A stretch of DNA of 64,000 bases, from the NCBI GenBank assembly GCA_023247445.1, contig JAHFGL010000004.1, forward strand, positions 72,968 to 136,967. Reading direction: 5' to 3'. The stretch is from Candidatus Omnitrophota bacterium (lineage in GTDB: Bacteria; Omnitrophota; Gorgyraeia; Zapsychrales; Zapsychraceae). Shown piece by piece: positions 47,670 to 62,425 of the stretch. The notes under the pieces are model-generated. The model searched no databases. It was not told the DNA's origin and was given only the letters and a program-made list of their open reading frames with translations. A program made the translations under genes and the position numbers. Position 1 is the stretch's first letter; every line of letters starts with the position of its first letter.

Positions 47670-47676
47670 ACAGATT

Positions 47677-48555: not shown

Positions 48556-49239
48556 GTGAAACCAAAAGTTGCAATCATCGATTTAAATATGGGAAATTTG
48601 TTCAGCATCAAGCAGGCCTGTGCGCATGTTGGGTTAGAAACTTTTATTACGTCGGATGCGCAAGAAATAAAAATGGCTGATGCTGTTATTTTGCCAGGGG
48701 TTGGCGCCTTTGGTAATGCGATGGAACATCTCAAAGAAAAAGATTTGATTAAGACGATTCATGAGGTGATTGCGCAAGGCAAACCTTTCTTTGGCATTTG
48801 TTTGGGAATGCAGATGCTTATGTCGGAAAGCGAAGAATTTGGTCGACACAAAGGTTTAGATATTATTCCAGGACGAGTTATTCGTTTTCCAAGTCGTGGG
48901 GCTAAAGAAAATGTTATCAAAGTTCCTCAGGTCGGCTGGAATCAGGTTTATCTGGCGGATCAATTTAAATTAAATCCTGAAAGAAGTTGTTGGAGTGATT
49001 TGGCCAATGGTGAGTATATGTATTTTGTGCATTCTTATTATGTTATTCCCCAGAATTCCAATGTCGTCGCGCTGGAAACAGTTTATGAAGATGTGAAGTA
49101 TTGTTCAGGATTGGTTAAGAACAATATTTTTGCGACACAATTTCATCCTGAAAAAAGCGCTGACAAGGGAATTAAGATTTATCAGAATTGGGCTAAGTTA
49201 GTTGAGAAGTCATTAATAAAAAGTATTCTGCTACGCTAA
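48556..49239 (+). CDS. HisH-like glutamine amidotransferase subunit (WbuY-like).
   Basis: VAIIDLNMGNLFSIKQAC..., a class I GATase with a Cys in GICLGMQ, and His/Glu near FHPEKS. Confidence 0.8.
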   Translation: MKPKVAIIDLNMGNLFSIKQACAHVGLETFITSDAQEIKMADAVILPGVGAFGNAMEHLKEKDLIKTIHEVIAQGKPFFGICLGMQMLMSESEEFGRHKGLDIIPGRVIRFPSRGAKENVIKVPQVGWNQVYLADQFKLNPERSCWSDLANGEYMYFVHSYYVIPQNSNVVALETVYEDVKYCSGLVKNNIFATQFHPEKSADKGIKIYQNWAKLVEKSLIKSILLR

Positions 49240-49318
49240 ATGCTTCCGCGTTAAGCTTCGCAGGAATTCCTACGAAGCTCAAACATGAAAATATTTGAGC
49301 GAAGTAGAAAGGAGTCGT

Positions 49319-50521
49319 ATGTTATTTCCTAATACAACATTAGATAAGTTTATTGGGCATCCCAACCGTCCCAAAGACATTACCTTTTGTACGAAATGCG
49401 TTGTCTCTAATCAGCGTCCACGGATTACTTTTAATAAAGATGGTGTTTGCAGCGCCTGTGGATTTGCCAATGAGAAACATCATGTCATCAATTGGAAAGA
49501 TCGTGAGGAACAGTTAGTGGCGCTTTTAGATAAATATCGTTCAAAAAATGGGGAATATGATTGTGTCGTTCCAGGAAGCGGGGGTAAAGACAGTAGCTAC
49601 ACCGCCCATCAACTAAAATATAAATATGGAATGCATCCTTTGACAGTTACCTGGGCTCCTTTTCTTTATACTGATATTGGTTGGCAGAATTATATTAATT
49701 TTAAAGATGCTGGATTTGAAAATCTATTATGTTTTCCAAACGGCATGATGCACCGCAAATTAGCGCGACTGGCTTTTGAGCTTTTAGGCGATGCGTGGGA
49801 ACCTTTTGCGTATGGTCAGAAAAGTTATGCCTTTCAGATTGCGGTTAAGTTTAATATTCCTTTAATTTTTTACGGAGAAAGTGGCGAAATTGAATATGGC
49901 GGTTCGTCTAAAAATAAAACCAAACCGTATGAAGACGTGGAGGATTGGAAGGATCTTTATTATAAAGGTTCGGGGTTGGATGATTTATTGGCTCACGGAC
50001 TTAAAGCCGGCCTTTTAACCGAAAAAGAAATTAAACAAACGTCGTTTGAGTTTTATAAACCGCCATCCGTTGAAAGTATTCGAAAACTCGGCATTCAGAT
50101 GCACTGGTTTTCGTATTATAAAAAATGGGTGCCGCAGGAAAATTATTATTACGCGACAGAACACACGGGATTTAAAGCCAATCCTGGGCGATCGGAAGGA
50201 ACCTATTCCAAATATGCAAGTTTAGATGATAAGACCGATGGCTTTCATTTTTATTTGGCGTATATTAAATTTGGGATTGCGCGCGCCACCTCAGATGCGG
50301 CGCATGAGATACGCGATGGTCATTTAACAAGAGAAGAAGGGGTTGCGTTGGTTCATCGTTATGATGGAGAATTTCCTCAGAAATATTTTAAAGAGTTTCT
50401 AGAGTATTTGAATATGACGGAAAAAGAATTCTGGGAAGTGATTGATTTTTACCGTTCTTTGTCTCCCCATGTGTGGCGTAGAAAAGATGGCCAATGGGAA
50501 TTAGTTAAAAAGGTTTCATAG
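49319..50521 (+). CDS. N-acetyl sugar amidotransferase (PP-loop; WbuX/PseA/WbpG-like).
   Basis: The DCVVPGSGGKDSSYTAHQL PP-loop. ATG at 49319 with an AAAGGAG RBS. It is the third member of the WbuX/Y/Z triad that makes acetamidino groups on amino sugars and nonulosonic acids. Confidence 0.75.
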   Translation: MLFPNTTLDKFIGHPNRPKDITFCTKCVVSNQRPRITFNKDGVCSACGFANEKHHVINWKDREEQLVALLDKYRSKNGEYDCVVPGSGGKDSSYTAHQLKYKYGMHPLTVTWAPFLYTDIGWQNYINFKDAGFENLLCFPNGMMHRKLARLAFELLGDAWEPFAYGQKSYAFQIAVKFNIPLIFYGESGEIEYGGSSKNKTKPYEDVEDWKDLYYKGSGLDDLLAHGLKAGLLTEKEIKQTSFEFYKPPSVESIRKLGIQMHWFSYYKKWVPQENYYYATEHTGFKANPGRSEGTYSKYASLDDKTDGFHFYLAYIKFGIARATSDAAHEIRDGHLTREEGVALVHRYDGEFPQKYFKEFLEYLNMTEKEFWEVIDFYRSLSPHVWRRKDGQWELVKKVS

Positions 50522-50685: not shown

Positions 50686-52314
50686 ATGCAGAATAGGATC
50701 CAAGGTAAAAGAATTGATGGTGTTTTAGGTAATAATGAGCTGCGTGATTATTTGGCTAACAAAGAAGAGACCGCCGCCGTTGAGGTTGTCAAATCCAGTC
50801 AAGATCTCTATCAATACCAAAAACCTTTTACACGTCCAATCCAAACATTGCTCATTGCGCCGCCAATTACGATCCCGCGCAATATGCAAAAAAGGTGCAT
50901 TCCTCCTTTAGGGTTAAGTTATATTGCCGCCTCAATTGAAAAAGCTGGTTTAAATGTCAAGATGCTCGATGCCATGATTGAAGGTTATCATCATGATGAG
51001 TTTAATGGCAATCTTATGACCTATGGCCTTTCGATGCAGCAGTTAGAGGATCGACTTCGTCAAATGCCGGTCGCCCCCGATGTTATTGGTACATCGGTAT
51101 TATTCTCAACGGATTTACATAATCTTTATAACGTTGCTAAGGTGATCAAGAGAGTCTTTCCAGAAAGCATCATGATTGTTGGCGGACTTCATCCAACAAT
51201 TTATCCCAAAGAAATTTTTGAAATTGATGAGCAGATAAATGGAAAGAATCGCACCGTTGATTTTGTCATCCGCGGCGAAGGAGAAGTACGTTTTGTTGAG
51301 TTTATTAAGCTGATGCAAAAAGGCTTGATTGATCGAAAAGGCGATGGATTAGTTGGTTATCTTAATGGCGAGTTTTTCTGTAACCATCAAAAGGGAACAA
51401 TTGAAAATATCGATTCCTTACCTTTTCCCGCCTATCATTTACTTCCCATGGAAAAATATTTAAGTATCAATATCCCATTTTCACCGGTTCCGCAAGGAAA
51501 TCGCGTGGCCCAAATTCTAACTTCGCGGGGTTGCCCGATTGGATGCAGTTTTTGTGCGAGTACGAATATGTATAAAAGATATCGTCATCGTTCGGTTGAA
51601 AATATTATGCAGGAGATATTTCAGCTTAAAGAAAGATACGATATTGATGAAATTCAATTTGCCGACGATAATTTAACATTAAATCGTGAACATTCGATTC
51701 AGTTTTTTAATGAACTAAAAAAAGCTGGCCTAAAATGGTGTACGCCCAACGGGACCATGATCAATACGTTGACGCCGGATCTTTTGGATTTAATGGCTCA
51801 ATCGGGTTTGTATCAGATTACGTTGTCTGTTGATAGCGCTAATGCCAAGACCCTTAAAAACCTTCATCATAAACCGGTTAATTTAAACAGTATTCCGGGG
51901 CTTATTGCCAAAGCGAAAGAATATGGCATCTTTACGCATGGAACGCTTGTTGTCGGAATGCCAGGGGAAACAATTGATGATGTGAAAGAAGGTTTTGATT
52001 ATGTCAAAAGCAACTTGGGTTTTACCAGTATTTCAACATTTATCGCGGCCGCTATTCCCGGATCAGAGCTTTATCATCAATCATTAGACAAAGGATTAAT
52101 TACTCGAGAAGAGGCGCGGATGATTGATACGACAAAAAATAAAATTCATTTGTCGGAGATGAATCCAGAAGTTTTAGAAACCATGGTCATGGATTTTCAG
52201 GCAGAGTTTACGGAGATTGCTAAGAACCGTGATCCCGAAGAATATTATCGTAAATATAAAAAATTAATTGAATCAGGTCGATTAAAGGGCGCCTATGGGG
52301 GACGTTTAACATGA
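50686..52314 (+). CDS. Cobalamin-binding (class B) radical SAM enzyme, a putative radical methyltransferase.
   Basis: An N-terminal B12-binding Rossmann segment (CIPPLGLSYIAASIEKAGLNVKMLD). The radical SAM CxxxCxxC lies in ILTSRGCPIGCSFCAS. 542 aa. Confidence 0.75.
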   Translation: MQNRIQGKRIDGVLGNNELRDYLANKEETAAVEVVKSSQDLYQYQKPFTRPIQTLLIAPPITIPRNMQKRCIPPLGLSYIAASIEKAGLNVKMLDAMIEGYHHDEFNGNLMTYGLSMQQLEDRLRQMPVAPDVIGTSVLFSTDLHNLYNVAKVIKRVFPESIMIVGGLHPTIYPKEIFEIDEQINGKNRTVDFVIRGEGEVRFVEFIKLMQKGLIDRKGDGLVGYLNGEFFCNHQKGTIENIDSLPFPAYHLLPMEKYLSINIPFSPVPQGNRVAQILTSRGCPIGCSFCASTNMYKRYRHRSVENIMQEIFQLKERYDIDEIQFADDNLTLNREHSIQFFNELKKAGLKWCTPNGTMINTLTPDLLDLMAQSGLYQITLSVDSANAKTLKNLHHKPVNLNSIPGLIAKAKEYGIFTHGTLVVGMPGETIDDVKEGFDYVKSNLGFTSISTFIAAAIPGSELYHQSLDKGLITREEARMIDTTKNKIHLSEMNPEVLETMVMDFQAEFTEIAKNRDPEEYYRKYKKLIESGRLKGAYGGRLT

Positions 52315-53063
52315 GTTTGTCCATGGTCAGAGCGCAAAATTTAAAATTCGCTGAGAGTTTTGATGTTGTAAAAAAACATTTTATGCGGGAAGGATTTTAT
52401 TCGACCGCCATAACGGAATGCGTATATGATCTTATTACATATTATTTTGCGCCAATTATCCTTAAATTAAAATTGAGCTTAAATGACATTTCTCTTATAA
52501 GAATTGCTTTAGTTATTTCTTGTGTGTTATTTACAATTTTTGGTGGGCTTGAGGGTTGGCGGATAGGTTTTCTACTTTTCTTTATCGCTAATATTCTAGA
52601 TTATGTCGATGGGCGGGTTGCTCGGGCAACCAGTAAAGGGACTTATTTTGGTCACTTTATTGATGGATTAATTGATATCGCTTCTGAAACCATGATTCGC
52701 TTTGCGTTAGCTTGGGGAATCTATCATCAGTTTGGGTTTACCCCGTTATTTTGGTTAGGAATTCTAAGTATGATGTTAACATCATTTCATATTTTTCTTT
52801 ATGACCGTTATTCAGCTTTTGCCCGATGGATAAGCTCGACAAATAATATGAATATTTCCCCTGTTCTGCAGAGAAAAGGCCTTTTAAAACCTCAAAATGT
52901 AATGTGGGATTTAGAATGGTTATCTTTGTTTTTTTCTTTGGCTTTTTTTGTGCAAGCAATTTGGATCTATTTTATTTTAAGTCTGATTCACCAGGTGTTT
53001 TTTATTACCTATATTATAAACGGAGCCCATGACAACATGAGAGTTCCTAATGAGGCCCATTAA
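52311..53063 (+). CDS. CDP-alcohol phosphatidyltransferase family membrane protein.
   Basis: The diagnostic D-G-x2-A-R-x8-G-x3-D-x3-D motif is present as DYVDGRVARATSKGTYFGHFIDGLIDIASE, within a protein of about 6 TM helices. Confidence 0.7.
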   Translation: MSLSMVRAQNLKFAESFDVVKKHFMREGFYSTAITECVYDLITYYFAPIILKLKLSLNDISLIRIALVISCVLFTIFGGLEGWRIGFLLFFIANILDYVDGRVARATSKGTYFGHFIDGLIDIASETMIRFALAWGIYHQFGFTPLFWLGILSMMLTSFHIFLYDRYSAFARWISSTNNMNISPVLQRKGLLKPQNVMWDLEWLSLFFSLAFFVQAIWIYFILSLIHQVFFITYIINGAHDNMRVPNEAH

Positions 53064-53080: not shown

Positions 53081-54757
53081 ATGATAAAGACAAAAAAACT
53101 TCGTAAATTATTTAACGACAAAGAAGTCATTTATGTGATGGGTGCGCATAATGGATTAAGCGCCAAACTAGTCGAGCAAAGTGGTTATGATGCTGTTTGG
53201 GCCAGCGGGCTTGAGATATCAGCTTCTTACGCGGTTCCCGATGCCAATATTTTAACGATGACTCAGTACTTAGAAAAGTCATCAGAGATGAATGAAGCGG
53301 GATCTCTACCTATTGTCAGCGACTGTGATACGGGTTATGGAAATTCGAATAATGTTATTTATCTTGTTAAGAAATATGAATCCGCCGGAATTGCTGCTAT
53401 TTGTTTGGAAGATAAACTTTTTCCTAAGGTGAATAGTTTTATTGGTGGTCGGCAAGAGTTGGCCCCCATTGCAGAATTTGTCGGAAAGATCATGGCGGCA
53501 AAAAATACTCAACGTGATGAAAATTTTATGGTGATTGCTCGTGTTGAAGCTTTGATTGCGGGTTGGGGGGAACGCGAAGCTTTATTAAGAGCGGAAAAGT
53601 ATGTTGAAGCAGGCGCCGATGCGATTTTAATTCATTCGAAGAGAACGGATCCTGATGAGATTATCAGCTTTGCCAAGAAATGGGACAAACGTGCTCCTTT
53701 GGTTGTGGTTCCGACCACTTATCCCTCTTTAATGCAGAATTTTTCTGACACAGATTTATCTGGTTTAGGAATCAAAATGGTCATTTTTGCCAATCAAGGC
53801 ATTCGTGCTTCAATTAAAGCGATGGGAAAAATTATGTCAGATATGCGACAGTCTCGAGGGGCTGTTTCCGTTGAGAAAGAAGTCGCTACATTAAAAGAGG
53901 TTTTTGAATTGCAGGGAATGATCCAAATGAAAGATAGTGAAAAGAAATTCCTTAAATCTGAAAATAGTGATTTCAACGTGATTATTCTTGCGGCCGGAGC
54001 CCCTCAGCATGGAGATGATCTTGAGCCTTTGCTACGTGATCGTCCTGTCGCGCTTCTCGATATTAATGGCCAGTCGCTTATTAAACGTAACCTTGAAACA
54101 TTATCGCGATTTAGCGTCAATGAAGTTTGTGTTGTGACTGGTTATTGTAGTGAACAGTTTAATTTACCGGACGCAACTTTAATCCACAACCCAGATTACG
54201 AAGGTAAGAATGTTTTACATTCTATCGTCGCGGCTGAAGAGAAATTAAAAGGCAAGACACTACTGGCTTATGCGGATATTCTTTTTGATCGGGGCATTAT
54301 TGAAAAGCTTTTAAAGTGCGATGAAGACATTGTTTTGGTTGGTGATGCTACATTTAAGAAAGTGAATATGAATAACCGCCGAAAAGACTTTCTTGTGACC
54401 GATGAGATGCCCAAGATCACGTATCGCTCGATTGATCTTAATAAATTAAAATGTATCCGAAAAATTGGTGGTGATACTCTTCCTGAAGAAGCGCATTATG
54501 AATTTGTGGGATTGGCGCTTCTTAGTGATCGTGGGTCAAAGATATTTAAAGAAATGTATCACACCATGGCTAAAGAAAATAAGATGGAGATTCTTAACGA
54601 CAAAATTACAATTAACGATGTCTTTCAGGAAATTATTAATCGAAATATCCCCATATCAATGTTAGAGGTTAATTCGGGCTGGATTGAGATTCAGACATTT
54701 GAAAATTATAAAACAGCTTGTTATTTGCTTTCTCCACAGACAGAAGGAACCAGATGA
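53081..54757 (+). CDS. pepM: Phosphoenolpyruvate mutase (PepM) fused to a C-terminal nucleotidyltransferase domain.
   Basis: The N-terminal ~290 aa have the PepM-specific EDKLFPKVNS motif of the ICL/PEPM superfamily (distinct from isocitrate lyase), plus SDCDTGYG. The C-terminal ~250 aa (VIILAAGAPQHGDDLEPLL...) is an NTP-transferase fold. Confidence 0.8.
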   Translation: MIKTKKLRKLFNDKEVIYVMGAHNGLSAKLVEQSGYDAVWASGLEISASYAVPDANILTMTQYLEKSSEMNEAGSLPIVSDCDTGYGNSNNVIYLVKKYESAGIAAICLEDKLFPKVNSFIGGRQELAPIAEFVGKIMAAKNTQRDENFMVIARVEALIAGWGEREALLRAEKYVEAGADAILIHSKRTDPDEIISFAKKWDKRAPLVVVPTTYPSLMQNFSDTDLSGLGIKMVIFANQGIRASIKAMGKIMSDMRQSRGAVSVEKEVATLKEVFELQGMIQMKDSEKKFLKSENSDFNVIILAAGAPQHGDDLEPLLRDRPVALLDINGQSLIKRNLETLSRFSVNEVCVVTGYCSEQFNLPDATLIHNPDYEGKNVLHSIVAAEEKLKGKTLLAYADILFDRGIIEKLLKCDEDIVLVGDATFKKVNMNNRRKDFLVTDEMPKITYRSIDLNKLKCIRKIGGDTLPEEAHYEFVGLALLSDRGSKIFKEMYHTMAKENKMEILNDKITINDVFQEIINRNIPISMLEVNSGWIEIQTFENYKTACYLLSPQTEGTR

Positions 54758-55524
54758 TAAAAACTGTGATAACGGCTGTTATTCTAGCAGCGGGATTAGG
54801 GAGACGATTAAAAGAACTTGGGCACAATGCCCCGAAAGGATTTTTGAAGTTTGGGGAAAAGCCAATTATTGAAGAGTCCATTGAAAAGCTTCTTGAGTCA
54901 GGAATAACCCAGATTATTTTGGTCACAGGATTTTTAAGCGAGTTTTATGAAGATTTTGCTTCTAAGTATCCAGAAGTAAAAATTGTAAAAAATGAGCGAT
55001 ATGCGACTTCGGGAAGTATGTATTCCTTATTTTGTGCCCGCGCATTGATTAATAAAGATTTCTTGTTAGTTGAATCCGATCTTATTTACGAGCGATTAGC
55101 CTTAGAAACACTTTTGCAGTCTGTGAAAGAGAATTGTCTTTTGGTTTGTGGAGAAACAGAATTTGGTGATGAGGTTCATGTTGAGGTATTAAACGGCTGC
55201 GTCTCTAAGATTTCAAAAAAGAGAGAAGAGGTTAAGAACGTTTATGGAGAATTTATTGGGATTTCGAAAATTTCTTTTCCCATGTATCAAGTGATGCTAA
55301 GAGAATGCGAAAAATTATTTCAGAAGGATCTAAACATCGAATACGATACCGGATGTATTTCTGCTTTAGCCAATCAAGTTAAAGTTGGCGCCGAGAAAGT
55401 TGAAGATCTTCTCTGGTCAGAGATTGATAACAAAGAACAATGGCAACGGGTTCAAAAAATTATTTATCCCGCCATCCAAAGCAAAGATGGTCAGGCTCAG
55501 GTTGATTTAAGGAAAAAATGCTAA
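54754..55524 (+). CDS. LicC/PntC-like cytidylyltransferase (phosphonate / phospho-headgroup nucleotidyltransferase).
   Basis: VILAAGLGRRLKELGHNAPKGFLKFGEKPIIEESIE is the LicC-type CTP:phosphocholine/AEP cytidylyltransferase signature. ATGA overlap with pepM. Confidence 0.7.
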   Translation: MIKTVITAVILAAGLGRRLKELGHNAPKGFLKFGEKPIIEESIEKLLESGITQIILVTGFLSEFYEDFASKYPEVKIVKNERYATSGSMYSLFCARALINKDFLLVESDLIYERLALETLLQSVKENCLLVCGETEFGDEVHVEVLNGCVSKISKKREEVKNVYGEFIGISKISFPMYQVMLRECEKLFQKDLNIEYDTGCISALANQVKVGAEKVEDLLWSEIDNKEQWQRVQKIIYPAIQSKDGQAQVDLRKKC

Positions 55525-56681
55525 ACACAAAATTATTTGGTCAAGAATTAAAAACGTATGGATTTAACTTCTTTTCCGGCGTTCCATGTTCTTTTTTAAA
55601 AGACCTTATTAATTATGCGATTAATGATTTGCGTTATGTCGCGGCCGCTAACGAAGGCGATGCCGTTGCCATTGCGGCAGGCGCTTATCTTGGCGGCATT
55701 AAATCCGCGGTCCTCATGCAAAATTCTGGATTAACGAATGCGACCTCACCATTAACATCATTGGTTTATACTTTTAAGATTCCGATTTTGGGGTTTGTTA
55801 GTCTTCGGGGAGAAACAGGAATTACTGATGAACCGCAGCACGAACTTATGGGAACGATAACAACCAAGTTTTTAGATACAATGCAAATTCCATGGGCATT
55901 TCTTTCTGACCAAATCGAAGAAGCGCGAGAGCAATTAAAGCAGGCCAACGCTTTTATTGAAGAGAATAAGCCATTTTTCTTTGTTGTGCGCAAGGGAACC
56001 TTTGAGCAAGAATCTCTTAAAGCCCGGACGATCCCTTCTGTTAAAAATAATCGAAAGGTTTTAGAATCAAAATCTAGTCATCTTGTTAGCCGTAACGACG
56101 CTTTAACTGAGATTCATAAAATTAAGGATGACGACACTGTTTTTTTGGCAACGACGGGAGTAACGGGAAGAGAGCTTTATGAGATTGATGATGCGGAAAA
56201 TAATCTTTACATGGTTGGATCCATGGGATGTGTCAGTTCATTAGGATTAGGCCTGGCGCTGGCTACGCCGCAAAAAAAAGTTGTGGTCATTGATGGCGAT
56301 GGATCTTTACTCATGCGGATGGGAGCACTCGCGACTAACGCAGCGTATGGGCCAAAAAATTTATTGCATATTACTTTGGATAACGGGATTCATGATTCAA
56401 CGGGCGGACAAGACACCGCTTCTCTAAATCTGAGTTTTGTCGAAATTACGGCCGCCTGTGGTTATGATCAAGCCTTATATGCTCACGATCTTGATGAATT
56501 AAAAAAATATATCAATCAATGGAAAAGTAATCCGGCATTAACTTTTATTCATTTAAAGATTAAGAAAGGGACAAGAGAAGATTTGTCTCGTCCTAAAATT
56601 AAACCTTTTGAAGTTAAGAATCGGTTAATGAAATTTTTAATCAAGAAGAGTAACGTTTTGCATTCACAACATGCAAAATGA
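55518..56681 (+). CDS. ppd: Phosphonopyruvate decarboxylase (TPP-dependent).
   Basis: YGFNFFSGVPCSFLKDLINYA...VAAANEGDAVAIAAGAYLGG (N-terminal PYR domain) and GSMGCVSSLGLGLALA...IDGDGSLLM (TPP-binding GDG). It is directly downstream of pepM, as in all AEP pathways. Confidence 0.8.
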   Translation: MLNTKLFGQELKTYGFNFFSGVPCSFLKDLINYAINDLRYVAAANEGDAVAIAAGAYLGGIKSAVLMQNSGLTNATSPLTSLVYTFKIPILGFVSLRGETGITDEPQHELMGTITTKFLDTMQIPWAFLSDQIEEAREQLKQANAFIEENKPFFFVVRKGTFEQESLKARTIPSVKNNRKVLESKSSHLVSRNDALTEIHKIKDDDTVFLATTGVTGRELYEIDDAENNLYMVGSMGCVSSLGLGLALATPQKKVVVIDGDGSLLMRMGALATNAAYGPKNLLHITLDNGIHDSTGGQDTASLNLSFVEITAACGYDQALYAHDLDELKKYINQWKSNPALTFIHLKIKKGTREDLSRPKIKPFEVKNRLMKFLIKKSNVLHSQHAK

Positions 56682-58378
56682 AAGGAGATTTTATGGAGCA
56701 AGCTCCTGAAGTATCTTCAAAAATTCGCAATCCTGTTTTAGAAAAAAATATTCCCGAAGATAGTGGACTGCGTGAATATTTGGCTGGTAAGGAAGAGACG
56801 GGTTTTGTTAAAGCCTCTATCAGAACGACAAATCTTATCCGCACTCATGAAGGTAGCGATAACTGGCCACGAACACTTTTACTTATGCCTCCGATTACTT
56901 TGTCGGAAGGAACGGTTAAACGAGTTATTCCGCCGTTAGGCTTAGCTTATATTGGGGGATACTTAGAGTCACAAAATATTCCCTTTGATATTCTTGACTG
57001 CGTGGTTGAGGCCTTGCACGAAGAACGTTTGATTAGTGATAAAACATGGCAATATGGGATGTCGTATGATCAAATTCGGAAATATATCGAAAATTATAAA
57101 CCGGATATTTTGGGCCTTTCCATCATGTATTCGTCAGATCTACATGCCCTTTATGAGGTGGCTCAAATTGCCAAGGAAATTAATCCTAAGATAATAACGA
57201 TTGGGGGAGGGATTCATCTTTCAATTTACCCCAAAGAAGTTTTAAATGAAAGTTTGATTGATGGAAAGCCAACCCTGGATTATCTTATCCGTGGGGAAGG
57301 TGAAATCCGTCTCGCCGAGTTTATTAAAAATTATAAACAAGGACTGATAGATATTAATGCGGATGGTTTATGTGGTTGGAATAATGGCAAAATTTTTCTA
57401 AATCCTCAAGTTGAAACAATCAAAAATTTAGACGACATGCCTTTCCCCGCTTATCATCGATTGCCGATGGAAAAATATTTTGAGTGGAATGTTCCGTTTT
57501 CTCCATATCCTCGAGGGAAAAGAGTTATGCAACTTTATACCTCCCGCGGATGTCCGGTTGGCTGTACGTTTTGCGCCAGTACCAATTTCAATAAAGCTTA
57601 TCGTGGGCGTTCTCCAGAAAATATCATCAAGGAAATTAAATATTATCAGGAAGTCTACAATATTGATGAAATTCAATTTGCTGATGATAATTTAACTTTT
57701 GATCGAACGCGGTCCATGGAGTTCTTTGAACTCTTGAAAGATTGTAACCTCCCTTGGTGTACACCCAATGGAACGATGGTCAATACGTTGACAGAAGAAG
57801 TGCTGGAGAAAATGATTGCTTCAGGTCTTTATCAAGTCACCCTTTCTTTAGACAGTGGTAGTGTTAAGACCTTAAAGCAGTTTCATCGAAAGCCTGTAAA
57901 CCTACAAAAGGTCCCGGGGTTAATTGCTTATTTAAAACCTAGGGGTATTTTAAGTCATGGGACAATTGTTGTTGGGATGCCAGGAGAAACGATTGCGGAC
58001 ATTGAAGAAGGTTTTGATTATACCCGTAATTTAGCCTTAGACAGCGTCGCTGTTTTTATTGCTCAGGCCTTGCCAGGTTCTGAGCTTTATGAAAAGGCTA
58101 TCGCGAGTGGCACCATTGATCGTTTTAAGGCCCGCATCATTGATACGCAGCAAAATTTAATTAATCTTTCTGATGTTCCCCGGGAATATCTTGAAAGACG
58201 TGTGAGGGAATTTGTCGCTGAATTTAATCAGGTTGTTCGTAAAAACGATCCTGAAACTTTTGATAAGAAATACGCAAAGCATAAGGACCGTCTAAGACAA
58301 ATTTGTATTGGAATGGCTCATCATAATGTAGACGGCATACTTAAAGCCTATGAGTCATCGCCGGTAGAAACAGTTTAA
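56678..58378 (+). CDS. Cobalamin-binding (class B) radical SAM enzyme, a paralog of 50686..52314.
   Basis: VIPPLGLAYIGGYLESQNIPFDILD (B12 domain) and LYTSRGCPVGCTFCAS (CxxxCxxC). It is roughly 40-45% identical to the first copy along its length. Confidence 0.75.
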   Translation: MKGDFMEQAPEVSSKIRNPVLEKNIPEDSGLREYLAGKEETGFVKASIRTTNLIRTHEGSDNWPRTLLLMPPITLSEGTVKRVIPPLGLAYIGGYLESQNIPFDILDCVVEALHEERLISDKTWQYGMSYDQIRKYIENYKPDILGLSIMYSSDLHALYEVAQIAKEINPKIITIGGGIHLSIYPKEVLNESLIDGKPTLDYLIRGEGEIRLAEFIKNYKQGLIDINADGLCGWNNGKIFLNPQVETIKNLDDMPFPAYHRLPMEKYFEWNVPFSPYPRGKRVMQLYTSRGCPVGCTFCASTNFNKAYRGRSPENIIKEIKYYQEVYNIDEIQFADDNLTFDRTRSMEFFELLKDCNLPWCTPNGTMVNTLTEEVLEKMIASGLYQVTLSLDSGSVKTLKQFHRKPVNLQKVPGLIAYLKPRGILSHGTIVVGMPGETIADIEEGFDYTRNLALDSVAVFIAQALPGSELYEKAIASGTIDRFKARIIDTQQNLINLSDVPREYLERRVREFVAEFNQVVRKNDPETFDKKYAKHKDRLRQICIGMAHHNVDGILKAYESSPVETV

Positions 58379-58419: not shown

Positions 58420-59193
58420 ATGCTCAAAACAAATTATTTTACCAAGTCGGAGTTAGAAGCGTATGACAGGGATGGATTTATCCTTGTTAAAAACTTTTTT
58501 GATGCCGAGAAATTAAAACACGTTATTAAGATGGTGGATGAATTAATCGCGATGCCTGATAGGGTTGGATTCATTTGGAAGTTTTACGAAGATTTATCAT
58601 CAAATGGAGCAGGTAAAATTCTAGATCGTATTGAGAATTATACTTTTTTGGTTGATGGATGGAAGGGGCTTATCGCTGAAGGAGAATTGCGAGATCGTTC
58701 TTCGGAGCTTTTTGGTGAAGACGCAATTCTATTTAAGGATAAAATTAATTTTAAATATCCTGGTGGACGAGGATTTAAACCTCATCAAGATATGCATGGT
58801 GATTGGCAGATTTATGCCGAGAAATTTTTGACAGCATCAATTGCCTTAGATCGATGCACTATTGAAAATGGATGTCTTTATGTTTCCGCAGGTGATCATA
58901 AAAGAGGCCTTTTTGGAAAAATGTGGGAACCAATTCCTGATGAGTTATTAAAGAAAGAAAATATTAAGTGGATTCCATTAGAAATGGAAGCGGGAGATGT
59001 GGCCTTTTTTGATGCTTATACGCCTCATTATTCAGAGCGTAATTTAAGTAAAATCCGTCGAGCCATGATCCATTTAACTTATAATAATAAAACCGCTGGC
59101 GATTTTTATCAAAAGCATCTTGATGATAAAAGAGTGAACTATCCTCCGGATATCGAGCGAAAAGAAGGTAAAAGCTATGTTTATCGTGTCTAA
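58420..59193 (+). CDS. Phytanoyl-CoA dioxygenase (PhyH) family Fe(II)/2-oxoglutarate oxygenase.
   Basis: 257 aa. An HxD...H facial-triad arrangement (HQDMHGDW ... TPHYSERN) and a PhyH-like N-terminal region (DGFILVKNFF). Confidence 0.65.
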   Translation: MLKTNYFTKSELEAYDRDGFILVKNFFDAEKLKHVIKMVDELIAMPDRVGFIWKFYEDLSSNGAGKILDRIENYTFLVDGWKGLIAEGELRDRSSELFGEDAILFKDKINFKYPGGRGFKPHQDMHGDWQIYAEKFLTASIALDRCTIENGCLYVSAGDHKRGLFGKMWEPIPDELLKKENIKWIPLEMEAGDVAFFDAYTPHYSERNLSKIRRAMIHLTYNNKTAGDFYQKHLDDKRVNYPPDIERKEGKSYVYRV

Positions 59194-59208: not shown

Positions 59209-60327
59209 ATGAAAGTAAGAAGAAACATACTTCTTAATCCCGGTCCAGCGACAACGAGTGATAGTGTTAAGAAGGCCCTCATCGTTGCGGATATTTGCCC
59301 GCGGGAAAAAGAATTCGTCAAGGTTGTTGATGGTGTCCGTCTAGATTTAGTCAAGATAGTTAAAGGCGATGGGCAGTATGCCTGTATTCTCTTGGCTGGA
59401 TCTGGAACGGCCGCCATGGATGCCTGCATTAATTCAGTTGCCCCACCCAAAAGTAGGATTGCGATTATCAACAATGGTGCCTATGGTAAGCGCTTAATTG
59501 ACATTGCAAAGTCTTATTCTCTAGATTATGTCGAAATACAATCAGCTTGGGAAAAGCCGCTCGATCCAAGTGTCGTTGAAGCAGTGCTTAAAAATGATCC
59601 ATCAATACGTTGTTTAGCGATGGTCCATCATGAGACAACAACCGGCCTGTTGAATCCATTAAAAGAGGTGGGAGCGATTGCGAAAAATTATAATTGCACA
59701 TTTATTGTCGATGCCATTTCTAGTTTTGCGGGTATTCCAATTGACATAAAAAAATGTCATGTCGATTTTTTGATATCGACCGCTAATAAGTGCATTCAGG
59801 GAATGCCTGGACTGGCTTTTATTATCTGCCACCAACCGGAATTAGCAAAGATTAGAAATTATCCTCGCCGTTCTTTTTATTTAAGTTTGTTTGATGAATA
59901 TAGTTATTATCAAAAAACAGGAGAGACGCGCTTTACCCCTCCGGTACAGGTGGTATATGCCCTGCGGCAGGCGATTAAGGAATATTCAAAGGAAGGCGCC
60001 ACGGGGCGTTATAAGCGTTATACGGCCAATTGGAAGGTCTTGCGCGATGGATTAGAGAGGATGGGATTTAAGTTTTTATTAAGGAAAGAAGATGAGTCAC
60101 ATATTTTAATGACCATGATGGAGCCGAATCATCCCAAATATAATTTTGATAAAATGCATGATCTTTTGTACAAGAAAGGTTTTACGATTTATCCCGGGAA
60201 GATTGGCCAGCTCAAAACATTTCGATTAGCGAATATGGGGGACATTAACCCAGCAGATATTAAACGTTTTTTACAAGAGTTAAAGAATGTATTAAAGAAA
60301 ATGGAAGTTTATTTAAAGAATGACTAA
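59209..60327 (+). CDS. 2-aminoethylphosphonate:pyruvate aminotransferase (class V aminotransferase; PhnW/AepZ-like).
   Basis: ILLNPGPATTSDSVKKAL...ACILLAGSGTAAMDA...STANKCIQGMPGLAFI places the PLP Lys in the xNKC motif. It belongs to the serine-pyruvate/AEP transaminase family and sits in the cluster with pepM and ppd. Confidence 0.75.
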   Translation: MKVRRNILLNPGPATTSDSVKKALIVADICPREKEFVKVVDGVRLDLVKIVKGDGQYACILLAGSGTAAMDACINSVAPPKSRIAIINNGAYGKRLIDIAKSYSLDYVEIQSAWEKPLDPSVVEAVLKNDPSIRCLAMVHHETTTGLLNPLKEVGAIAKNYNCTFIVDAISSFAGIPIDIKKCHVDFLISTANKCIQGMPGLAFIICHQPELAKIRNYPRRSFYLSLFDEYSYYQKTGETRFTPPVQVVYALRQAIKEYSKEGATGRYKRYTANWKVLRDGLERMGFKFLLRKEDESHILMTMMEPNHPKYNFDKMHDLLYKKGFTIYPGKIGQLKTFRLANMGDINPADIKRFLQELKNVLKKMEVYLKND

Positions 60328-62425
60328 GGATCAAAATAAAAATGAGTCTCCCTATGTGTGCTGGGTTGATCACGTAAGTTTTTTAGCTCTGGCCAGAATC
60401 CTTTTCTTAAGGCTACAGTATCCTTTCACAGCCATCCGTTACATCACGATCAGTCTCCAGGTTAAGAAAATCGTCGAGCGTTTCTTAAAATCACTCAAAT
60501 TTGAAAATGTGTATTTATTCGCGAATAATGTATCTCCTCACGAAGAGATGGCGATTACCAATAAGACATATGACGATACGGTTTCTTTCATCGATCAAGT
60601 CATCAAACCTTCAGAATCTGTTACGCCAATGCTTAGTTTTATTGACGAGCGTTACAACAAAGAAACAATTGATTTCTTTATGAAGCAAGAAATTGCCTTT
60701 GAGATCGATGTCCCTTTAAGGCTTTTTAACTGTATTATTTTTCAAAGTCAAAAGACCAGAGGAACAGCAGCATCTAAAAATATCGTTCTTATCAAAGATA
60801 ATTATTGGATAGATTATTTTAGGTCTTTTTATGCTTCACATGTTATCCAGGTGAGTGCGTATCCAAATATTAAAGAATTTATCAACAAAATTTATGTTTT
60901 CTTTAAATTAATCGTTGAGATTTTTTTAAATGGAATTCTTTTAGTGTTGGGTAAGAAAATAAATGATCAGGAGTTTAATGCCTCGGCTAAAATTGCTGTC
61001 TTACATGCGCAAGGAGTAAATCTAGAGAAAAAGACTGATTATTTCTGGTTTCCCGGTTCTGGCATAAATTCAGAGCAGATTCTTCTGTACTTTAAATATC
61101 CTACCAGACCACCCAGTCCAGAGGTTTTAGAGTTTGTGAATCGTAATAAAATTCCTTGGATTAACCTTTTGCCATGGAAAATTGGACATAAGAAATTATT
61201 GGGCGCAACGGCAGAATTCAATCGTTTCCCTGACAAGGGGTATCTTAAATTATTAATGCAGACACTCAAAACAAGCATCCGGATATTGTTTTTTTGTTTA
61301 ATCAATCGCCGACGAAAACTGTTTGGTTTTTGGAAATTTTTAACAGCGCTGTTGGCCACGATCAATTTTTTTGAAGCTTTTTTTAAGACTTACAATATCA
61401 AAGTCCATTTTGCCATGCATGATGGAGGGCGTGATATGGTGGCGGCCAATATTGCCATTGAGGTCGTTGGTGGAATTGATTTGTGCACGCACTGGTCTAG
61501 TTATGACACTACGATGTTAACGATGGGCAAAAGTCACGATGTTTGTTTTACCTGGGGCCCTTTTTTTACTAAGCATTTTTTTAGTAAGCCCTACTATTCA
61601 TTTAAAAATTTTGTTTATAGTGGCTATCTTTTTGATCGATCATTTGAATCATGTCAGAAAAAATCTAAGAAATATCGGCAACAACTTTTAAATGAAGGGG
61701 CAGAGTTTATTATTTGTCTATTTGACCAAAATAATCCCATCGAACGGCCTTTATGGAATCAGGAAGTTGAGAAATTATATCGTCGTCTCCTTGAGCTTGT
61801 CATTAAAGATAAAAAGTTGGGTCTTATTATCAAACCTAAAAAAATAAATCCAAAGGTCAAGCTATCGGCGATTGCTTCATTACTTCAAGAAGCTGAAACG
61901 ACCAAACGGTGTTTTGTTTTGATGGGAGATACTTTCCCTAATGAGGCCTCGCAAGCTTCTGATTTAGCTATCGGAGTATCGGTTGCCAGTACACCAACCG
62001 TCGAGGCTGCTTTGGCTGGGGCGAAGTGCATTACCTTTGATTTGGAAAGTCATTACGAGCATCCGTTTTATAAAGAGGGTCATCATAAGATTGTTTTTGA
62101 TGATTTGGATGAAATGTTTGAAACCATCGCCCGTTTTCGTTTAGAGCCATTATCTAGAAAAGGATTTGGCGATTATTCTTTTATTCTGCCTGAGATTGAT
62201 CCTTTCCGTGATCATAAAGCCTCAGAACGTATTGGGATTTATATCCGTGTTTTGCTGGAAGAGTTTGTTAAAGGGCATAATAAAGCAAGGGTTATCAACG
62301 TTGCCAACGAGTTTTATCGCCGTCAATATGGTCAAGATAAAGTGCTTGAGAGAAGCTTAAGCAGTGATGCAACGAGTGTTGAAAACATGGTGGATTCAAT
62401 TGTGTTGTCCAAAAGAGGAATTTAA
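60320..62425 (+). CDS. Large hypothetical protein of 701 aa, a candidate glycosyl/phospho(no)transferase.
   Basis: No firm motif. The C-terminal third (GDTFPNEASQASDLAIGVSVASTPTVEAALAGAKCITFD) looks like the last Rossmann unit of GT-B or TagF/KpsC-type transferases. It is translationally coupled to the AEP transaminase. Confidence 0.35.
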   Translation: MTKDQNKNESPYVCWVDHVSFLALARILFLRLQYPFTAIRYITISLQVKKIVERFLKSLKFENVYLFANNVSPHEEMAITNKTYDDTVSFIDQVIKPSESVTPMLSFIDERYNKETIDFFMKQEIAFEIDVPLRLFNCIIFQSQKTRGTAASKNIVLIKDNYWIDYFRSFYASHVIQVSAYPNIKEFINKIYVFFKLIVEIFLNGILLVLGKKINDQEFNASAKIAVLHAQGVNLEKKTDYFWFPGSGINSEQILLYFKYPTRPPSPEVLEFVNRNKIPWINLLPWKIGHKKLLGATAEFNRFPDKGYLKLLMQTLKTSIRILFFCLINRRRKLFGFWKFLTALLATINFFEAFFKTYNIKVHFAMHDGGRDMVAANIAIEVVGGIDLCTHWSSYDTTMLTMGKSHDVCFTWGPFFTKHFFSKPYYSFKNFVYSGYLFDRSFESCQKKSKKYRQQLLNEGAEFIICLFDQNNPIERPLWNQEVEKLYRRLLELVIKDKKLGLIIKPKKINPKVKLSAIASLLQEAETTKRCFVLMGDTFPNEASQASDLAIGVSVASTPTVEAALAGAKCITFDLESHYEHPFYKEGHHKIVFDDLDEMFETIARFRLEPLSRKGFGDYSFILPEIDPFRDHKASERIGIYIRVLLEEFVKGHNKARVINVANEFYRRQYGQDKVLERSLSSDATSVENMVDSIVLSKRGI

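What the first reader, a model, noticed from the sequence alone, without database searches (positions are those of the whole stretch)
53081..55524. PepM with a C-terminal nucleotidyltransferase domain, followed by a second stand-alone LicC/PntC-like cytidylyltransferase
Two nucleotidyltransferase modules sit back to back. One is fused to the C-terminus of PEP mutase, which is the reverse of the Fom1 order. The other is a separate LicC-like gene joined by an ATGA overlap. Nucleotidyl activation of phosphonates is established: Fom1 makes CMP-HEP and PntC makes CMP-AEP. Two different NTases suggests two different substrates, for example a pathway intermediate and the final head group, or dual activation. 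That is unusual.
Basis: partly seen in the sequence, partly recalled or inferred. Interest (0 to 1): 0.6.

Follow-up and report, generated by a model that had tools for sequence, protein, structure and literature searches.

The report
PEP mutase with disabled cytidylyltransferase-like tail
The gene pair is real, but it is the commonest layout of bacterial phosphonate-making genes rather than an oddity, and only the separate gene keeps the residues a cytidylyltransferase needs, while the copy fused to PEP mutase has lost them yet is strongly conserved.

Summary
Observation confirmed. ORF 53081-54757 (558 aa) is a PEP mutase with a C-terminal LicC/PntC-fold domain. ORF 54754-55524 (256 aa) is a canonical PntC joined to it by an ATGA overlap. 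Both sit in one operon with Ppd, AEPT, a PhyH dioxygenase, a CDP-alcohol phosphotransferase and two B12-radical-SAM methyltransferases.

The layout is not unusual. Rice et al. 2019 found PF12804 fused to 33% of all PEP mutases and showed clusters that hold both a fused and a separate nucleotidyltransferase (NTase). I found at least 576 relatives in species-representative genomes, and the best 80 are all full-length fusions.

Under profile alignment the fused domain lacks the GxG(T/S)R...PK core: P308 replaces the second Gly, there is a 3-residue insertion, Arg becomes D313 and Lys becomes V323. It also lacks the Lys153 equivalent (L480) and one metal-binding Asp (Q538). The same losses occur across a monophyletic clade of 81 fusions that is under strong purifying selection (dN/dS about 0.07-0.15).

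Best reading: one working cytidylyltransferase (PntC), plus a PepM-tethered, catalytically disabled, probably nucleotide-binding domain with a regulatory or coupling role. That role is inferred. A non-canonical catalytic role is not excluded.

The parts
53081..54757 (+). Fusion gene, 558 aa: PEP mutase plus a C-terminal LicC/PntC-fold domain
   Evidence: ORF list. Pfam PF13714 plus PF12804. An identical protein, P0010, is in the public collection.
53081..53956 (+). PEP mutase domain (residues 1-292), with the Ppm-specific motif E110-D-K-L-F-P-K-V-N-S119
   Evidence: PDB 5unc 6.7e-93 and 1m1b 7.7e-79. TIGR02320 scores 318.1 bits against a cut-off of 319.55. The EDKxxxxxNS motif is read directly from the translation. 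The criterion for that motif comes from PMC6697681.
53975..54754 (+). NTase-like (LicC/PntC-fold) domain, residues 299-558, lacking the canonical catalytic residues
   Evidence: AF2 model with pLDDT 84.4. Foldseek top hits are 6pd1/6pd2/1jyk. hhalign against canonical relatives gives E 8e-62.
53987..54052 (+). Degenerate signature loop L303-AAGAPQHGDDLEPLLRDRPVA-324. P308 replaces the second Gly, Q309-G311 is an insertion, D313 sits at the catalytic Arg position, and V323 sits at the catalytic Lys position.
   Evidence: Alignments. The same pattern is seen in 120 close homologues and in 81 genome loci.
54680..54694 (+). W534-I-E536-I-Q538: the counterpart of the metal-binding 'W.EID' motif, with Gln in place of Asp (His in most relatives)
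   Evidence: The Asp position is His in 60, Gln in 8 and Asp in 11 of 81 fused domains, and Asp in 35 of 35 aligned separate NTases.
54754..55524 (+). Stand-alone PntC-type cytidylyltransferase, 256 aa, canonical G14-L-G-R-R18 ... P27-K28, K172, E107/D109, E223-I-D225
   Evidence: PDB 6pd1 5.5e-52 and LicC 1.5e-18. Pfam hits. Residues are read from the alignments.
54754..54757 (+). ATGA start/stop overlap that couples the fusion gene to pntC
   Evidence: Sequence.
55518..56681 (+). Phosphonopyruvate decarboxylase (Ppd)
   Evidence: TIGR03297 scores 424 bits against a cut-off of 312.5. TPP domains found.
56678..58378 (+). B12-binding radical SAM methyltransferase, Sden_1168 family
   Evidence: NF038361 scores 764.9 bits against a cut-off of 575. 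PF02310 plus PF04055.
58420..59193 (+). PhyH-family Fe(II)/2-oxoglutarate dioxygenase
   Evidence: PF05721 3.8e-26. Weak hit to the methylphosphonate hydroxylase model, 139 bits against a cut-off of 500.
59209..60327 (+). 2-aminoethylphosphonate aminotransferase (AEPT)
   Evidence: TIGR03301 scores 445.8 bits against a cut-off of 360.8.
52311..53063 (+). CDP-alcohol phosphotransferase family membrane protein, a candidate user of the CMP-phosphonate
   Evidence: PF01066 5.1e-10. Conserved next to the fusion gene in L086 and L089.
50686..52314 (+). Second B12-binding radical SAM methyltransferase, Sden_1168 family
   Evidence: NF038361 scores 597.5 bits against a cut-off of 575.
60320..62425 (+). 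701-aa protein of unknown family with a GT-B fold, conserved downstream of AEPT
   Evidence: No Pfam or NCBIfam hit. Only 12 homologues found. AF2 pLDDT 83. Foldseek hits GT-B transferases and epimerases, polysialyltransferase and TarL. A 702-aa counterpart occurs in L086.

Best explanation
The locus is an ordinary 2-aminoethylphosphonate (AEP) type 'phosphonyl tailoring' operon.

Proposed pathway: the PepM domain converts PEP to phosphonopyruvate. Ppd pulls that unfavourable equilibrium forward by decarboxylation to phosphonoacetaldehyde. AEPT makes AEP. The dioxygenase and the two B12-radical-SAM enzymes probably hydroxylate or methylate the phosphonate. The stand-alone PntC makes the CMP-phosphonate from CTP. 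A CDP-alcohol-type phosphotransferase, and possibly the GT-B protein, passes the head group to a lipid or to the neighbouring nonulosonic-acid glycan.

Only one canonical cytidylyltransferase acts on the phosphonate. The domain fused to PepM descends from a PntC/LicC-like enzyme and keeps the whole fold and the nucleotide-side scaffold (AAG, the first metal Asp D399, E536). It has lost every residue that was shown to be needed for cytidylyl transfer in Tde-PntC: Arg15 is D313, Lys25 is V323 and Lys153 is L480. It has also lost one metal Asp (Q538).

I therefore read the fused domain as a conserved pseudo-NTase. It most likely binds a cytidine nucleotide (CTP or the CMP-phosphonate product) and couples or regulates PepM with the downstream pathway, in the way the non-catalytic paralogue GMPPA senses GDP-mannose and controls GMPPB.

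Shown: domain identities, loss of the catalytic residues, conservation of that loss, purifying selection, and co-occurrence with a canonical NTase. Inferred: nucleotide binding, the regulatory or coupling role, and the order of the tailoring steps.
For: 1. The catalytic residues are missing under three independent alignments.

2. Rice et al. report that R15A, K25A and K153A cut Tde-PntC activity to below 10%, and that the equivalent Lys-to-Ala change abolishes FrbH and YgbP activity (PMC6697681).

3. Among 81 fused domains from phylogenetically very diverse genomes, the Arg position holds Arg in at most 2 (neither in a GxGxR context), the Lys position holds Lys in 9, and the Lys153 position holds Lys in 5. 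Among 58 separate NTases from the same loci, 57 have the Arg and 56 the Lys.

4. The whole-domain fold is retained. Its best structural matches are PntC and LicC.

5. The domain is not decaying. dN/dS is 0.065-0.15 in unsaturated pairs, close to the PepM domain's 0.05-0.13. Invariant residues lie at ligand-side positions.

6. A separate canonical NTase lies within 10 kb in 35 of 45 loci that have at least 5 kb of flank on both sides. In the window it is translationally coupled to the fusion gene.

7. The closest relatives (L086, L087, L089) keep fusion plus PntC plus Ppd, with AEPT also present in L086 and L087; L089 ends at the contig edge just after PntC, so Ppd and AEPT cannot be confirmed there.

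8. There is precedent for a non-catalytic NTase paralogue acting as a product sensor: GMPPA/GMPPB (PMC11228364). GMPPA/B structure 7d72 is among the fold hits.
Against: 1. Ten of 45 well-flanked loci have no canonical NTase within 10 kb, and no NTase Pfam family appears among the common families of their 86 neighbouring ORFs. In those genomes the fused domain may still carry out some nucleotidyl chemistry, or PntC lies elsewhere.

2. The lost Asp is replaced by a conserved His (60 of 81) rather than by random residues. That pattern looks like a gain of new chemistry as much as a loss.

3. Fusions that keep canonical or near-canonical residues (L081 Burkholderiales-type, L085) also have a second canonical NTase. 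The separate PntC is therefore not simply compensation for a dead domain.

4. No binding or activity data exist. Compensation by residues that are distant in sequence cannot be excluded from a model whose coordinates I could not inspect.
Confidence: 0.5

Rival explanations
1. Both modules are active NTases with different substrates, for example a pathway intermediate and the final head group, or dual activation.
For: Two NTase-fold modules are conserved together. In the Burkholderiales-type locus L081 and in L085, both the fused and the separate NTase keep canonical or near-canonical residues, so a two-enzyme logic probably existed ancestrally. Fom1 shows that a PepM-fused CyTase can be active (PMC6697681).
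Against: In this window and its clade the fused domain lacks the Arg15, Lys25 and Lys153 equivalents and one metal Asp. Single Ala substitutions at the three basic residues cut Tde-PntC activity to below 10%.
Confidence: 0.12
2. The fused domain is an enzyme with new chemistry on the old fold. It could use the CMP-phosphonate as donor (phosphonyl transfer to an acceptor hydroxyl) or hydrolyse it in the manner of FomD. The conserved His/Gln would act in acid-base catalysis, and the PPi-binding loop would no longer be needed.
For: The Asp is replaced by His (60 of 81) or Gln (8 of 81) in concert with loss of the PK Lys. Purifying selection is strong. D399 and E536, the metal ligands, are retained. 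Ten of 45 loci lack any other NTase nearby. The NTase fold is shared with GT-A transferases that use nucleotide-activated donors (general knowledge).
Against: The clusters already encode dedicated transferase candidates: CDP-OH_P_transf here, in L086 and in L089, and LicD in L087. There is no precedent for this chemistry in PF12804. If no CMP-phosphonate is made in the loci that lack a PntC, a CMP-phosphonate-using enzyme would have no substrate.
Confidence: 0.2
3. The fused domain is purely structural. It would be an oligomerisation or docking scaffold that holds PepM together with Ppd or PntC, with no ligand binding.
For: Catalytic residues are lost. The junction to the PepM C-terminal helix is very short, about 6 residues. 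The fusion is kept across many phyla.
Against: The invariant residues sit at former active-site positions (AAG, D399, E536, W534). That is unexpected for a mere scaffold. A conserved His at the former metal site also argues for a ligand.
Confidence: 0.1

Closest known systems
Ppm-PF12804 fusions with an additional PntC in phosphonyl-tailoring (Pnt) clusters (Rice et al. 2019, PMC6697681; 'Burkholderiales_CDP-OH' core in Li & Horsman 2022, PMC8942020)
   Same: PepM is fused to a MobA-like/LicC-like domain. A separate PntC, Ppd, AEPT, an Fe/2OG oxygenase and a CDP-alcohol phosphotransferase lie in one cluster.
   Different: In the accessible text and supplement, those papers treat the fused domain as an NTase and do not examine its catalytic motif. 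Here, and in a large clade, the fused domain lacks that motif. The Burkholderiales-type fusion I inspected (L081) is canonical. This cluster also carries two Sden_1168-family radical SAM enzymes and is embedded in a nonulosonic-acid locus.
Treponema denticola PntC (Tde1415, PDB 6PD1/6PD2) and S. pneumoniae LicC (1JYK)
   Same: The stand-alone gene matches Tde-PntC at 5.5e-52 and has all catalytic residues. The fused domain has the same fold.
   Different: Tde1415 is a PntC-AEPT fusion, whereas here PntC is free-standing. The residue at the Tde E196 position (an AEP-amine ligand) is Asp, as in LicC D192 (read). The fused domain lacks the R15, K25 and K153 equivalents.
Fom1 (CyTase-PepM, fosfomycin pathway)
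   Same: A PEP mutase fused to a nucleotidyltransferase-type module. The B12-radical-SAM methyltransferase in that pathway acts on a cytidylylated phosphonate (this last point is from my own knowledge of the Fom3 work).
   Different: The domain order is opposite. The Fom1 CyTase belongs to PF01467, a different family with no detectable similarity to either protein here (PMC6697681). The Fom1 CyTase is catalytically active.
Non-catalytic NTase paralogues that regulate a catalytic partner: GMPPA/GMPPB, and the ADP-glucose pyrophosphorylase large subunit
   Same: The NTase fold is retained, catalytic signature residues are altered, and the protein is paired with an active paralogue. GMPPA binds the product nucleotide-sugar and feeds back on GMPPB (PMC11228364). 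The AGPase analogy is from my own memory.
   Different: Here the degenerate module is fused to an upstream, unrelated enzyme (PepM) rather than forming a hetero-oligomer with its paralogue. Ligand binding and regulation are untested.

Membership tests
PEP mutase (Ppm/PepM) | Isocitrate-lyase/PEP-mutase superfamily fold with the Ppm-specific EDKxxxxxNS motif | tested here: met
   PF13714 2.4e-53. E110-DKLFPKVN-S119 is present. Motif criterion from PMC6697681. PDB PEP mutases 5unc and 1m1b match at 1e-79 to 1e-93.
PEP mutase (Ppm/PepM) | Passes the curated equivalog model TIGR02320 | tested here: inconclusive
   318.1 bits against a cut-off of 319.55, so 1.5 bits short. The phosphonopyruvate hydrolase model scores lower relative to its own cut-off (298 against 374).
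PEP mutase (Ppm/PepM) | Coupled to a phosphonopyruvate-consuming enzyme in the same cluster | tested here: met
   Ppd (TIGR03297, 424 bits against 312.5) lies two genes downstream.
PntC (phosphonate cytidylyltransferase), stand-alone gene 54754-55524 | GXG(T/S)RX4-8PK signature with the catalytic Arg and Lys | tested here: met
   G14-L-G-R-R18-x8-P27-K28.
PntC (phosphonate cytidylyltransferase), stand-alone gene 54754-55524 | Lys153 equivalent and metal ligands (xSD, W.EID) | tested here: met
   K172, D109 and E223/D225.
PntC (phosphonate cytidylyltransferase), stand-alone gene 54754-55524 | AEP-amine ligands Glu104 and Glu196 of Tde-PntC (Asp in LicC) | tested here: inconclusive
   The E104 position is Glu (E107). 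The E196 position is Asp, as in LicC (alignment, read).
PntC (phosphonate cytidylyltransferase), stand-alone gene 54754-55524 | Preference for AEP over phosphocholine with CTP | not testable with these tools
   Needs an enzyme assay.
PntC/LicC NTase, domain fused to PepM (residues 299-558) | LicC/PntC fold over the whole domain | tested here: met
   AF2 pLDDT 84. Foldseek 6pd1/6pd2/1jyk with E about 1e-14 and TM 0.70-0.74. hhalign probability 100%.
PntC/LicC NTase, domain fused to PepM (residues 299-558) | GXG(T/S)RX4-8PK signature | tested here: not met
   A-A-G306-A-P308-QHG-D-D313 ... P322-V323. The second Gly, the Arg and the Lys are all replaced. The same holds in the clade.
PntC/LicC NTase, domain fused to PepM (residues 299-558) | Lys153 equivalent and a complete metal site | tested here: not met
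   L480 sits at the Lys153 position. D399 and E536 are kept, but the 'EID' Asp is Q538.
Fom1-type CyTase (PF01467) | Cytidylyltransferase-like PF01467 domain, N-terminal to PepM | tested here: not met
   No PF01467 hit in either protein. The domain order is reversed.
Regulatory pseudo-NTase (GMPPA-like logic) | Fold kept, catalytic residues lost, under purifying selection, active paralogue alongside | tested here: met
   A canonical NTase lies within 10 kb in 35 of 45 well-flanked loci.
Regulatory pseudo-NTase (GMPPA-like logic) | Binds the product nucleotide and allosterically controls the partner enzyme | not testable with these tools
   Needs binding and kinetic experiments.

The most novel reading that the evidence does not exclude
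The most widespread 'nucleotidyltransferase' fused to PEP mutase is not a transferase at all. It would be a conserved pseudo-enzyme, or a neo-functionalised enzyme, that arose once from a PntC-like ancestor. It then lost Arg15, later Lys25 and Lys153, and swapped a metal Asp for His or Gln. It now senses CTP or the CMP-phosphonate to gate the committed, thermodynamically uphill PepM step. If so, the counts that underlie the 'predominance of nucleotidyl activation' would need re-reading, and phosphonate flux control would have a concrete, testable handle.
Probability: 0.35. Interest if true: 0.65.

Novelty: new member of a known kind. Interest (0 to 1): 0.38.

Why it matters
As stated, the finding is a further example of a published and very common architecture, so it does not change the picture of phosphonate biosynthesis.

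What could matter is the side result. In a large, phylogenetically broad clade spanning bacteria, CPR and archaea, the PepM-fused PF12804 domain has lost the residues that define cytidylyl transfer, yet it stays under strong selection. In the papers I could read, these domains are counted as NTases, and I found no analysis of their catalytic motif.

If the domain is a sensor or coupler, it would be the first regulatory element known for PepM, the enzyme that makes almost all biological C-P bonds. If it has new chemistry, it marks a missing step in cell-surface phosphonate tailoring.

The cluster itself is also a candidate source of an undescribed surface modification. It holds two SD_1168-type B12 radical SAM enzymes and sits inside a legionaminic-acid-type locus.

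Tried and rejected
1. The word-indexed search with the C-domain alone found only 9 proteins. The exhaustive search and the full-length search were needed instead.

2. A 38-sequence alignment was too diverse for the locus scan, so I used a 14-sequence one.

3. I tested the hypothesis that fusions with canonical residues lack a separate NTase. I rejected it, because L081 (fully canonical) and L085 (near-canonical) both have a second canonical NTase.

4. I looked for other NTase families (PF01467 and others) in the 9 loci without a canonical neighbour. None was among the top 25 families across 86 ORFs. Families hit by a single ORF were not listed, so this negative result is soft.

5. The source organism was not identified. 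The best match is 67% identical, from a Verrucomicrobiota MAG.

6. Literature searches for later work on the fused domain or on Sden_116x genes found nothing relevant. One search was badly framed.

7. PDB sequence searches for the radical SAM and PhyH proteins gave only distant hits.

8. The promoter and terminator scans gave no more sites than shuffled sequence.

9. I considered reading the fused domain as a decaying relic and rejected it because of the dN/dS values.
Full report
**1. What is there**

The + strand between about 35.5 kb and the end of the window is a run of tightly packed or overlapping genes.

- ORF 53081-54757 encodes a 558-aa protein.
- A longer TTG-started ORF from 54718 is listed mechanically. 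However, an independent contig carrying the identical proteins has a 256-aa gene call that starts at the ATG. The N-terminus MIKTVITAVILAAG also lines up with residue 4 of T. denticola PntC.

Domain assignments:

| Protein | Evidence |
|---|---|
| 558-aa, N-terminal half | PEP_mutase PF13714, residues 7-255, E 2.4e-53 |
| 558-aa, N-terminal half | PDB PEP mutases 5unc 6.7e-93, 1m1b 7.7e-79 |
| 558-aa, C-terminal half | NTP_transf_3 PF12804, residues 301-418, E 8.8e-10 |
| 558-aa, C-terminal 269 residues alone | LicC 1jyk 7e-8; PntC 6pd1 1.7e-4 |
| 256-aa | PF12804 and PF00483 |
| 256-aa | PntC-AEPT structure 6pd1, 5.5e-52 over residues 7-243 |

The N-terminal half carries the Ppm-specific motif E110-DKLFPKVN-S119. 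Rice et al. use this motif to separate true PEP mutases from other isocitrate-lyase superfamily members (PMC6697681).

**2. The neighbourhood**

| Coordinates | Assignment | Evidence |
|---|---|---|
| 50686-52314 | B12-binding radical SAM enzyme | NF038361 597 bits, cut-off 575 |
| 52311-53063 | CDP-alcohol phosphotransferase family protein | PF01066 |
| 55518-56681 | Phosphonopyruvate decarboxylase (Ppd) | TIGR03297 424 bits, cut-off 312.5 |
| 56678-58378 | B12-binding radical SAM enzyme | NF038361 765 bits, cut-off 575 |
| 58420-59193 | PhyH-type dioxygenase | PF05721 |
| 59209-60327 | AEP aminotransferase (AEPT) | TIGR03301 446 bits, cut-off 361 |

NF038361 is named 'Sden_1168 family B12-binding radical SAM P-methyltransferase'.

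Further upstream, 37359-50521 is a legionaminic-acid-type nonulosonic acid pathway. It includes a dehydratase, a DegT aminotransferase, a PglD-like acetyltransferase, NeuB, a hydrolysing 2-epimerase, a CBS-NTase, a CMP-sugar synthetase and a HisF/HisH-type amidotransferase.

The same union of nonulosonic-acid and phosphonate genes is syntenic in the two nearest genomes I could retrieve, L086 and L089. A third relative, L087, has LicD, the fusion, Ppd, PntC and AEPT inside an O-antigen/EPS locus.

This is a cell-surface phosphonate tailoring cluster of the kind described by Rice et al. 2019 and by Li & Horsman 2022.

**3. Is the architecture unusual? No.**

- Rice et al. found that 59.5% of 1485 bona fide Ppm sequences are fused to another domain. 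PF12804 is the commonest partner (33.0%). They state explicitly that the clusters in their Fig. [quoted passage not shown] That is nearly the gene set here.
- In my own searches, the full-length protein finds 3400 proteins at E <= 1e-10. The best 120 are all 536-587 aa long and cover 96-99% of the query.
- In one genome per GTDB species, at least 576 stretches encode relatives. The best 80 are all full-length fusions. They come from Omnitrophota, Chloroflexota, Planctomycetota, Desulfobacterota, Nitrospinota, CPR lineages and several archaeal groups.

**4. Is the fused domain a second nucleotidyltransferase?**

It does.

phmmer against LicC aligns ILAAGAPQHGDDLEPLLRDRPVAL with ILAAGL---GTRLRPLTENTPKAL.

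A profile-profile comparison set 21 fused domains against 25 canonical relatives including the window's PntC (hhalign probability 100%, E 8.4e-62, 249 columns). It aligns the consensus 'vIipAAG~P~nQeslepLLrd~PvamLDINGk' with 'aIILAAG~G---~RL~plT~n~PK~ll~i~GK'.

The resulting substitutions in the window protein are:

| Canonical feature | Fused domain | Note |
|---|---|---|
| Second Gly of GxG | P308 | |
| (none) | Q309-G311 | 3-residue insertion |
| Catalytic Arg (Tde-PntC Arg15) | D313 | |
| Catalytic Lys (Lys25) | V323 | |
| Lys153 | L480 | |
| 'W.EID' metal motif | W534-I-E-I-Q538 | Asp replaced by Gln |

Rice et al. report below 10% activity for the R15A, K25A and K153A variants of Tde-PntC. 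They also note that the equivalent Lys-to-Ala change abolishes FrbH and YgbP activity.

The stand-alone PntC has all of these residues: G14-L-G-R-R18, P27-K28, K172, D109 and E223-I-D225.

**5. This is a clade property, not a local defect**

I aligned every NTase-like domain found in the 80 genome loci and the window to an HMM built from 35 canonical stand-alone relatives.

| Position | 81 PepM-fused domains | 58 separate NTases in the same loci |
|---|---|---|
| Catalytic Arg | Arg in at most 2, neither in a GxGxR context | Arg in 57 |
| Catalytic Lys | Lys 9, Arg 4, hydrophobic or Thr in the rest | Lys in 56 |
| Lys153 position | Lys in 5 | Lys or Arg in 37 of 39 aligned |
| 'EID' Asp | His 60, Gln 8, Asp 11 | Asp in 35 of 35 aligned |
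| First metal Asp | kept in 80 | |
| 'EID' Glu | kept in 79 | |

The Lys and the Asp are lost together. All nine Lys-retaining fusions keep the Asp.

A crude neighbour-joining tree puts all 80 locus-derived fused domains, plus five further fused sequences, in one clade that contains no stand-alone NTase. The fully canonical fused forms (P0216, P0206, P0257) fall outside that clade, and the Lys-retaining forms sit next to the near-canonical P0154. This fits a stepwise loss after fusion, but an NJ tree at about 30% identity is weak evidence.

The domain is nevertheless well conserved:

- Mean pairwise identity is 36%, against 59% for the PepM domain.
- dN/dS is 0.065-0.15 in pairs with unsaturated dS, against 0.05-0.13 for PepM.
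- The AlphaFold model (pLDDT 84.4, pTM 0.86) is a complete LicC/PntC fold. Its best PDB matches are 6pd1/6pd2 and 1jyk.

**6. Does a canonical NTase always accompany it? Mostly.**

Among 45 loci with at least 5 kb on both sides of the fusion gene, 35 have a separate NTase with both the Arg and the Lys within 10 kb. Usually it lies 1-3.5 kb away.

Ten do not. A Pfam scan of 86 neighbouring ORFs from nine of them showed no NTase family among the 25 most frequent families.

I also tested the converse prediction, that fusions keeping canonical residues would lack a separate NTase. That prediction failed.

- The Burkholderiales-type locus L081 has a canonical fused domain (AASRGARL...PK, GVAK, DVD). 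It also has a canonical separate PF12804 gene.
- L085 is similar.

The two-module layout therefore predates the degeneration. For this window it does not.

**7. How it most likely works**

Shown or strongly supported by curated models: PepM, Ppd and AEPT make AEP, and the stand-alone PntC is the cytidylyltransferase.

Inferred: the PhyH dioxygenase and the two SD_1168-family radical SAM enzymes modify the phosphonate. By analogy with Fom3 they may act on the cytidylylated form (that analogy is my own knowledge). The CDP-alcohol phosphotransferase and/or the GT-B protein at 60320-62425 transfers the head group to a lipid or to the nonulosonic-acid glycan.

For the fused domain I commit to a non-catalytic, nucleotide-binding regulatory or coupling module tethered to PepM. 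Confidence in that specific role is about 0.4. Confidence that it is not a canonical cytidylyltransferase is about 0.75.

The logic:

- The residues that were lost are those that hold the PPi leaving group and stabilise the transition state.
- The residues that were kept line the nucleotide and metal side of the pocket.
- PepM catalyses the committed and thermodynamically unfavourable step, which is a natural point for feedback.
- An active paralogue is co-expressed.
- Non-catalytic NTase paralogues acting as product sensors are known. GMPPA binds GDP-mannose and inhibits GMPPB (PMC11228364).

The main rival is neo-functionalisation. It is suggested by the conserved Asp-to-His/Gln swap and by the ten loci that have no other NTase.

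**8. Comparison with what is known, and novelty**

The finding as written is a new member of a known kind.

- The stand-alone gene passes the sequence tests for PntC. One exception: the Tde-E196 position is Asp, as in LicC. That might mean a slightly larger head-group pocket, but this is speculative.
- The fused domain passes the fold test for the LicC/PntC family and fails its signature-motif test. I therefore do not file it as a cytidylyltransferase.
- It is unrelated to the Fom1 CyTase (PF01467).

In the literature available to me I found no analysis of the catalytic motif of Ppm-fused PF12804 domains. The alignment in Rice et al.'s supplement covers only stand-alone enzymes. Subscription-journal work may exist that I could not search.

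**9. Verdict**

- Observation: confirmed.
- Interpretation: partly supported. The architecture and the PntC assignment are right. 'Unusual' and 'two active NTases' are not supported.
- Interest: moderate to low for the finding as stated. It is somewhat higher for the side result, that a very widespread PepM-fused 'NTase' lacks the catalytic residues yet is strongly conserved.

Noticed in passing
window 12567-12706 (+), and 12785-17534: A cobalamin riboswitch (RF00174, 56.7 bits, E 2e-11) lies directly upstream of a TonB-dependent receptor, a periplasmic binding protein, an ABC ATPase and a FecCD permease, which together look like a BtuBFCD-type B12 uptake set. B12-dependent MetH is at 5603-9289. 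This fits a genome that feeds two B12-dependent radical SAM enzymes in the phosphonate operon.
   Followed up: partly
window 50686-52314 and 56678-58378: Two paralogous B12-binding radical SAM enzymes both pass the NCBIfam cut-off for the 'Sden_1168 family P-methyltransferase' (597 and 765 bits, cut-off 575). From memory, SD_1168 P-methylates demethylphosphinothricin derivatives in vitro (Allen & Wang 2014). The cluster might therefore make a methylated phosphonate or even a phosphinate (C-P-C) head group. No paper on Sden_116x was found in the library.
   Followed up: partly
window 37359-50521; L086 1-6616; L089 1-7577: The phosphonate genes are fused to a legionaminic-acid-type nonulosonic acid pathway (NeuB, hydrolysing 2-epimerase, CBS-NTase, CMP-sugar synthetase, DegT, PglD-like, HisF/HisH amidotransferase, N-acetyl-sugar amidotransferase-like ORF 49295-50521). 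The union is syntenic in two other genomes. This suggests a phosphonate-decorated nonulosonic-acid glycan.
   Followed up: partly
window 60320-62425: A 701-aa protein with no Pfam or NCBIfam hit and only 12 homologues among 5.8 billion proteins, conserved right after AEPT (702 aa in L086). The AF2 model (pLDDT 83) has a GT-B fold. Foldseek hits are UDP-GlcNAc 2-epimerases, GT-B glycosyltransferases, a CMP-sialic-acid polysialyltransferase (5wc6) and the CDP-ribitol polymerase TarL (8va1). It is a candidate transferase for the CMP-activated sugar or phosphonate.
   Followed up: partly
L081 7463-8245 and 10001-11662 (GCA_002938315.1): This is a Burkholderiales-type phosphonate locus lying next to hopanoid and squalene genes. 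Its PepM-fused NTase domain keeps all canonical catalytic residues. A second canonical PF12804 gene, PhyH, Ppd and three CDP-OH phosphotransferases are also present. In that clade two active NTases are plausible.
   Followed up: partly
L016, L017, L020, L024, L063-L065, L067, L069, L070: These PepM-fusion loci have degenerate fused domains but no canonical NTase within 10 kb. Several carry B12-radical-SAM genes, glycosyltransferases and Ppd instead. Whether a PntC lies elsewhere in these genomes is unknown.
   Followed up: partly
window 54754-55524 (PntC residue aligned to Tde-PntC E196): The stand-alone PntC has Glu at the Tde-E104 position but Asp at the Tde-E196 position, as in LicC D192. 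This may indicate room for a bulkier (methylated or hydroxylated) aminoalkylphosphonate.
   Followed up: no
window 4776-5495; 27-4580; 22480-26772: There is a PEP-CTERM-tagged protein and two very large proteins (1517 aa with a weak GT1 hit; 1430 aa with He_PIG/NHL repeats). These point to an exosortase-bearing Gram-negative organism, possibly of the PVC group. The closest fusion homologue in a named genome is from a Verrucomicrobiota MAG at 67% identity.
   Followed up: no
window 44164-45234 and 46168-46878: The window holds two further nucleotidyltransferases: a CBS-domain NTP_transferase and a CMP-nonulosonate synthetase-type CTP_transf_3. Both belong to the nonulosonic-acid pathway rather than to phosphonate activation. 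The window therefore holds four NTase-fold modules in 11 kb.
   Followed up: partly
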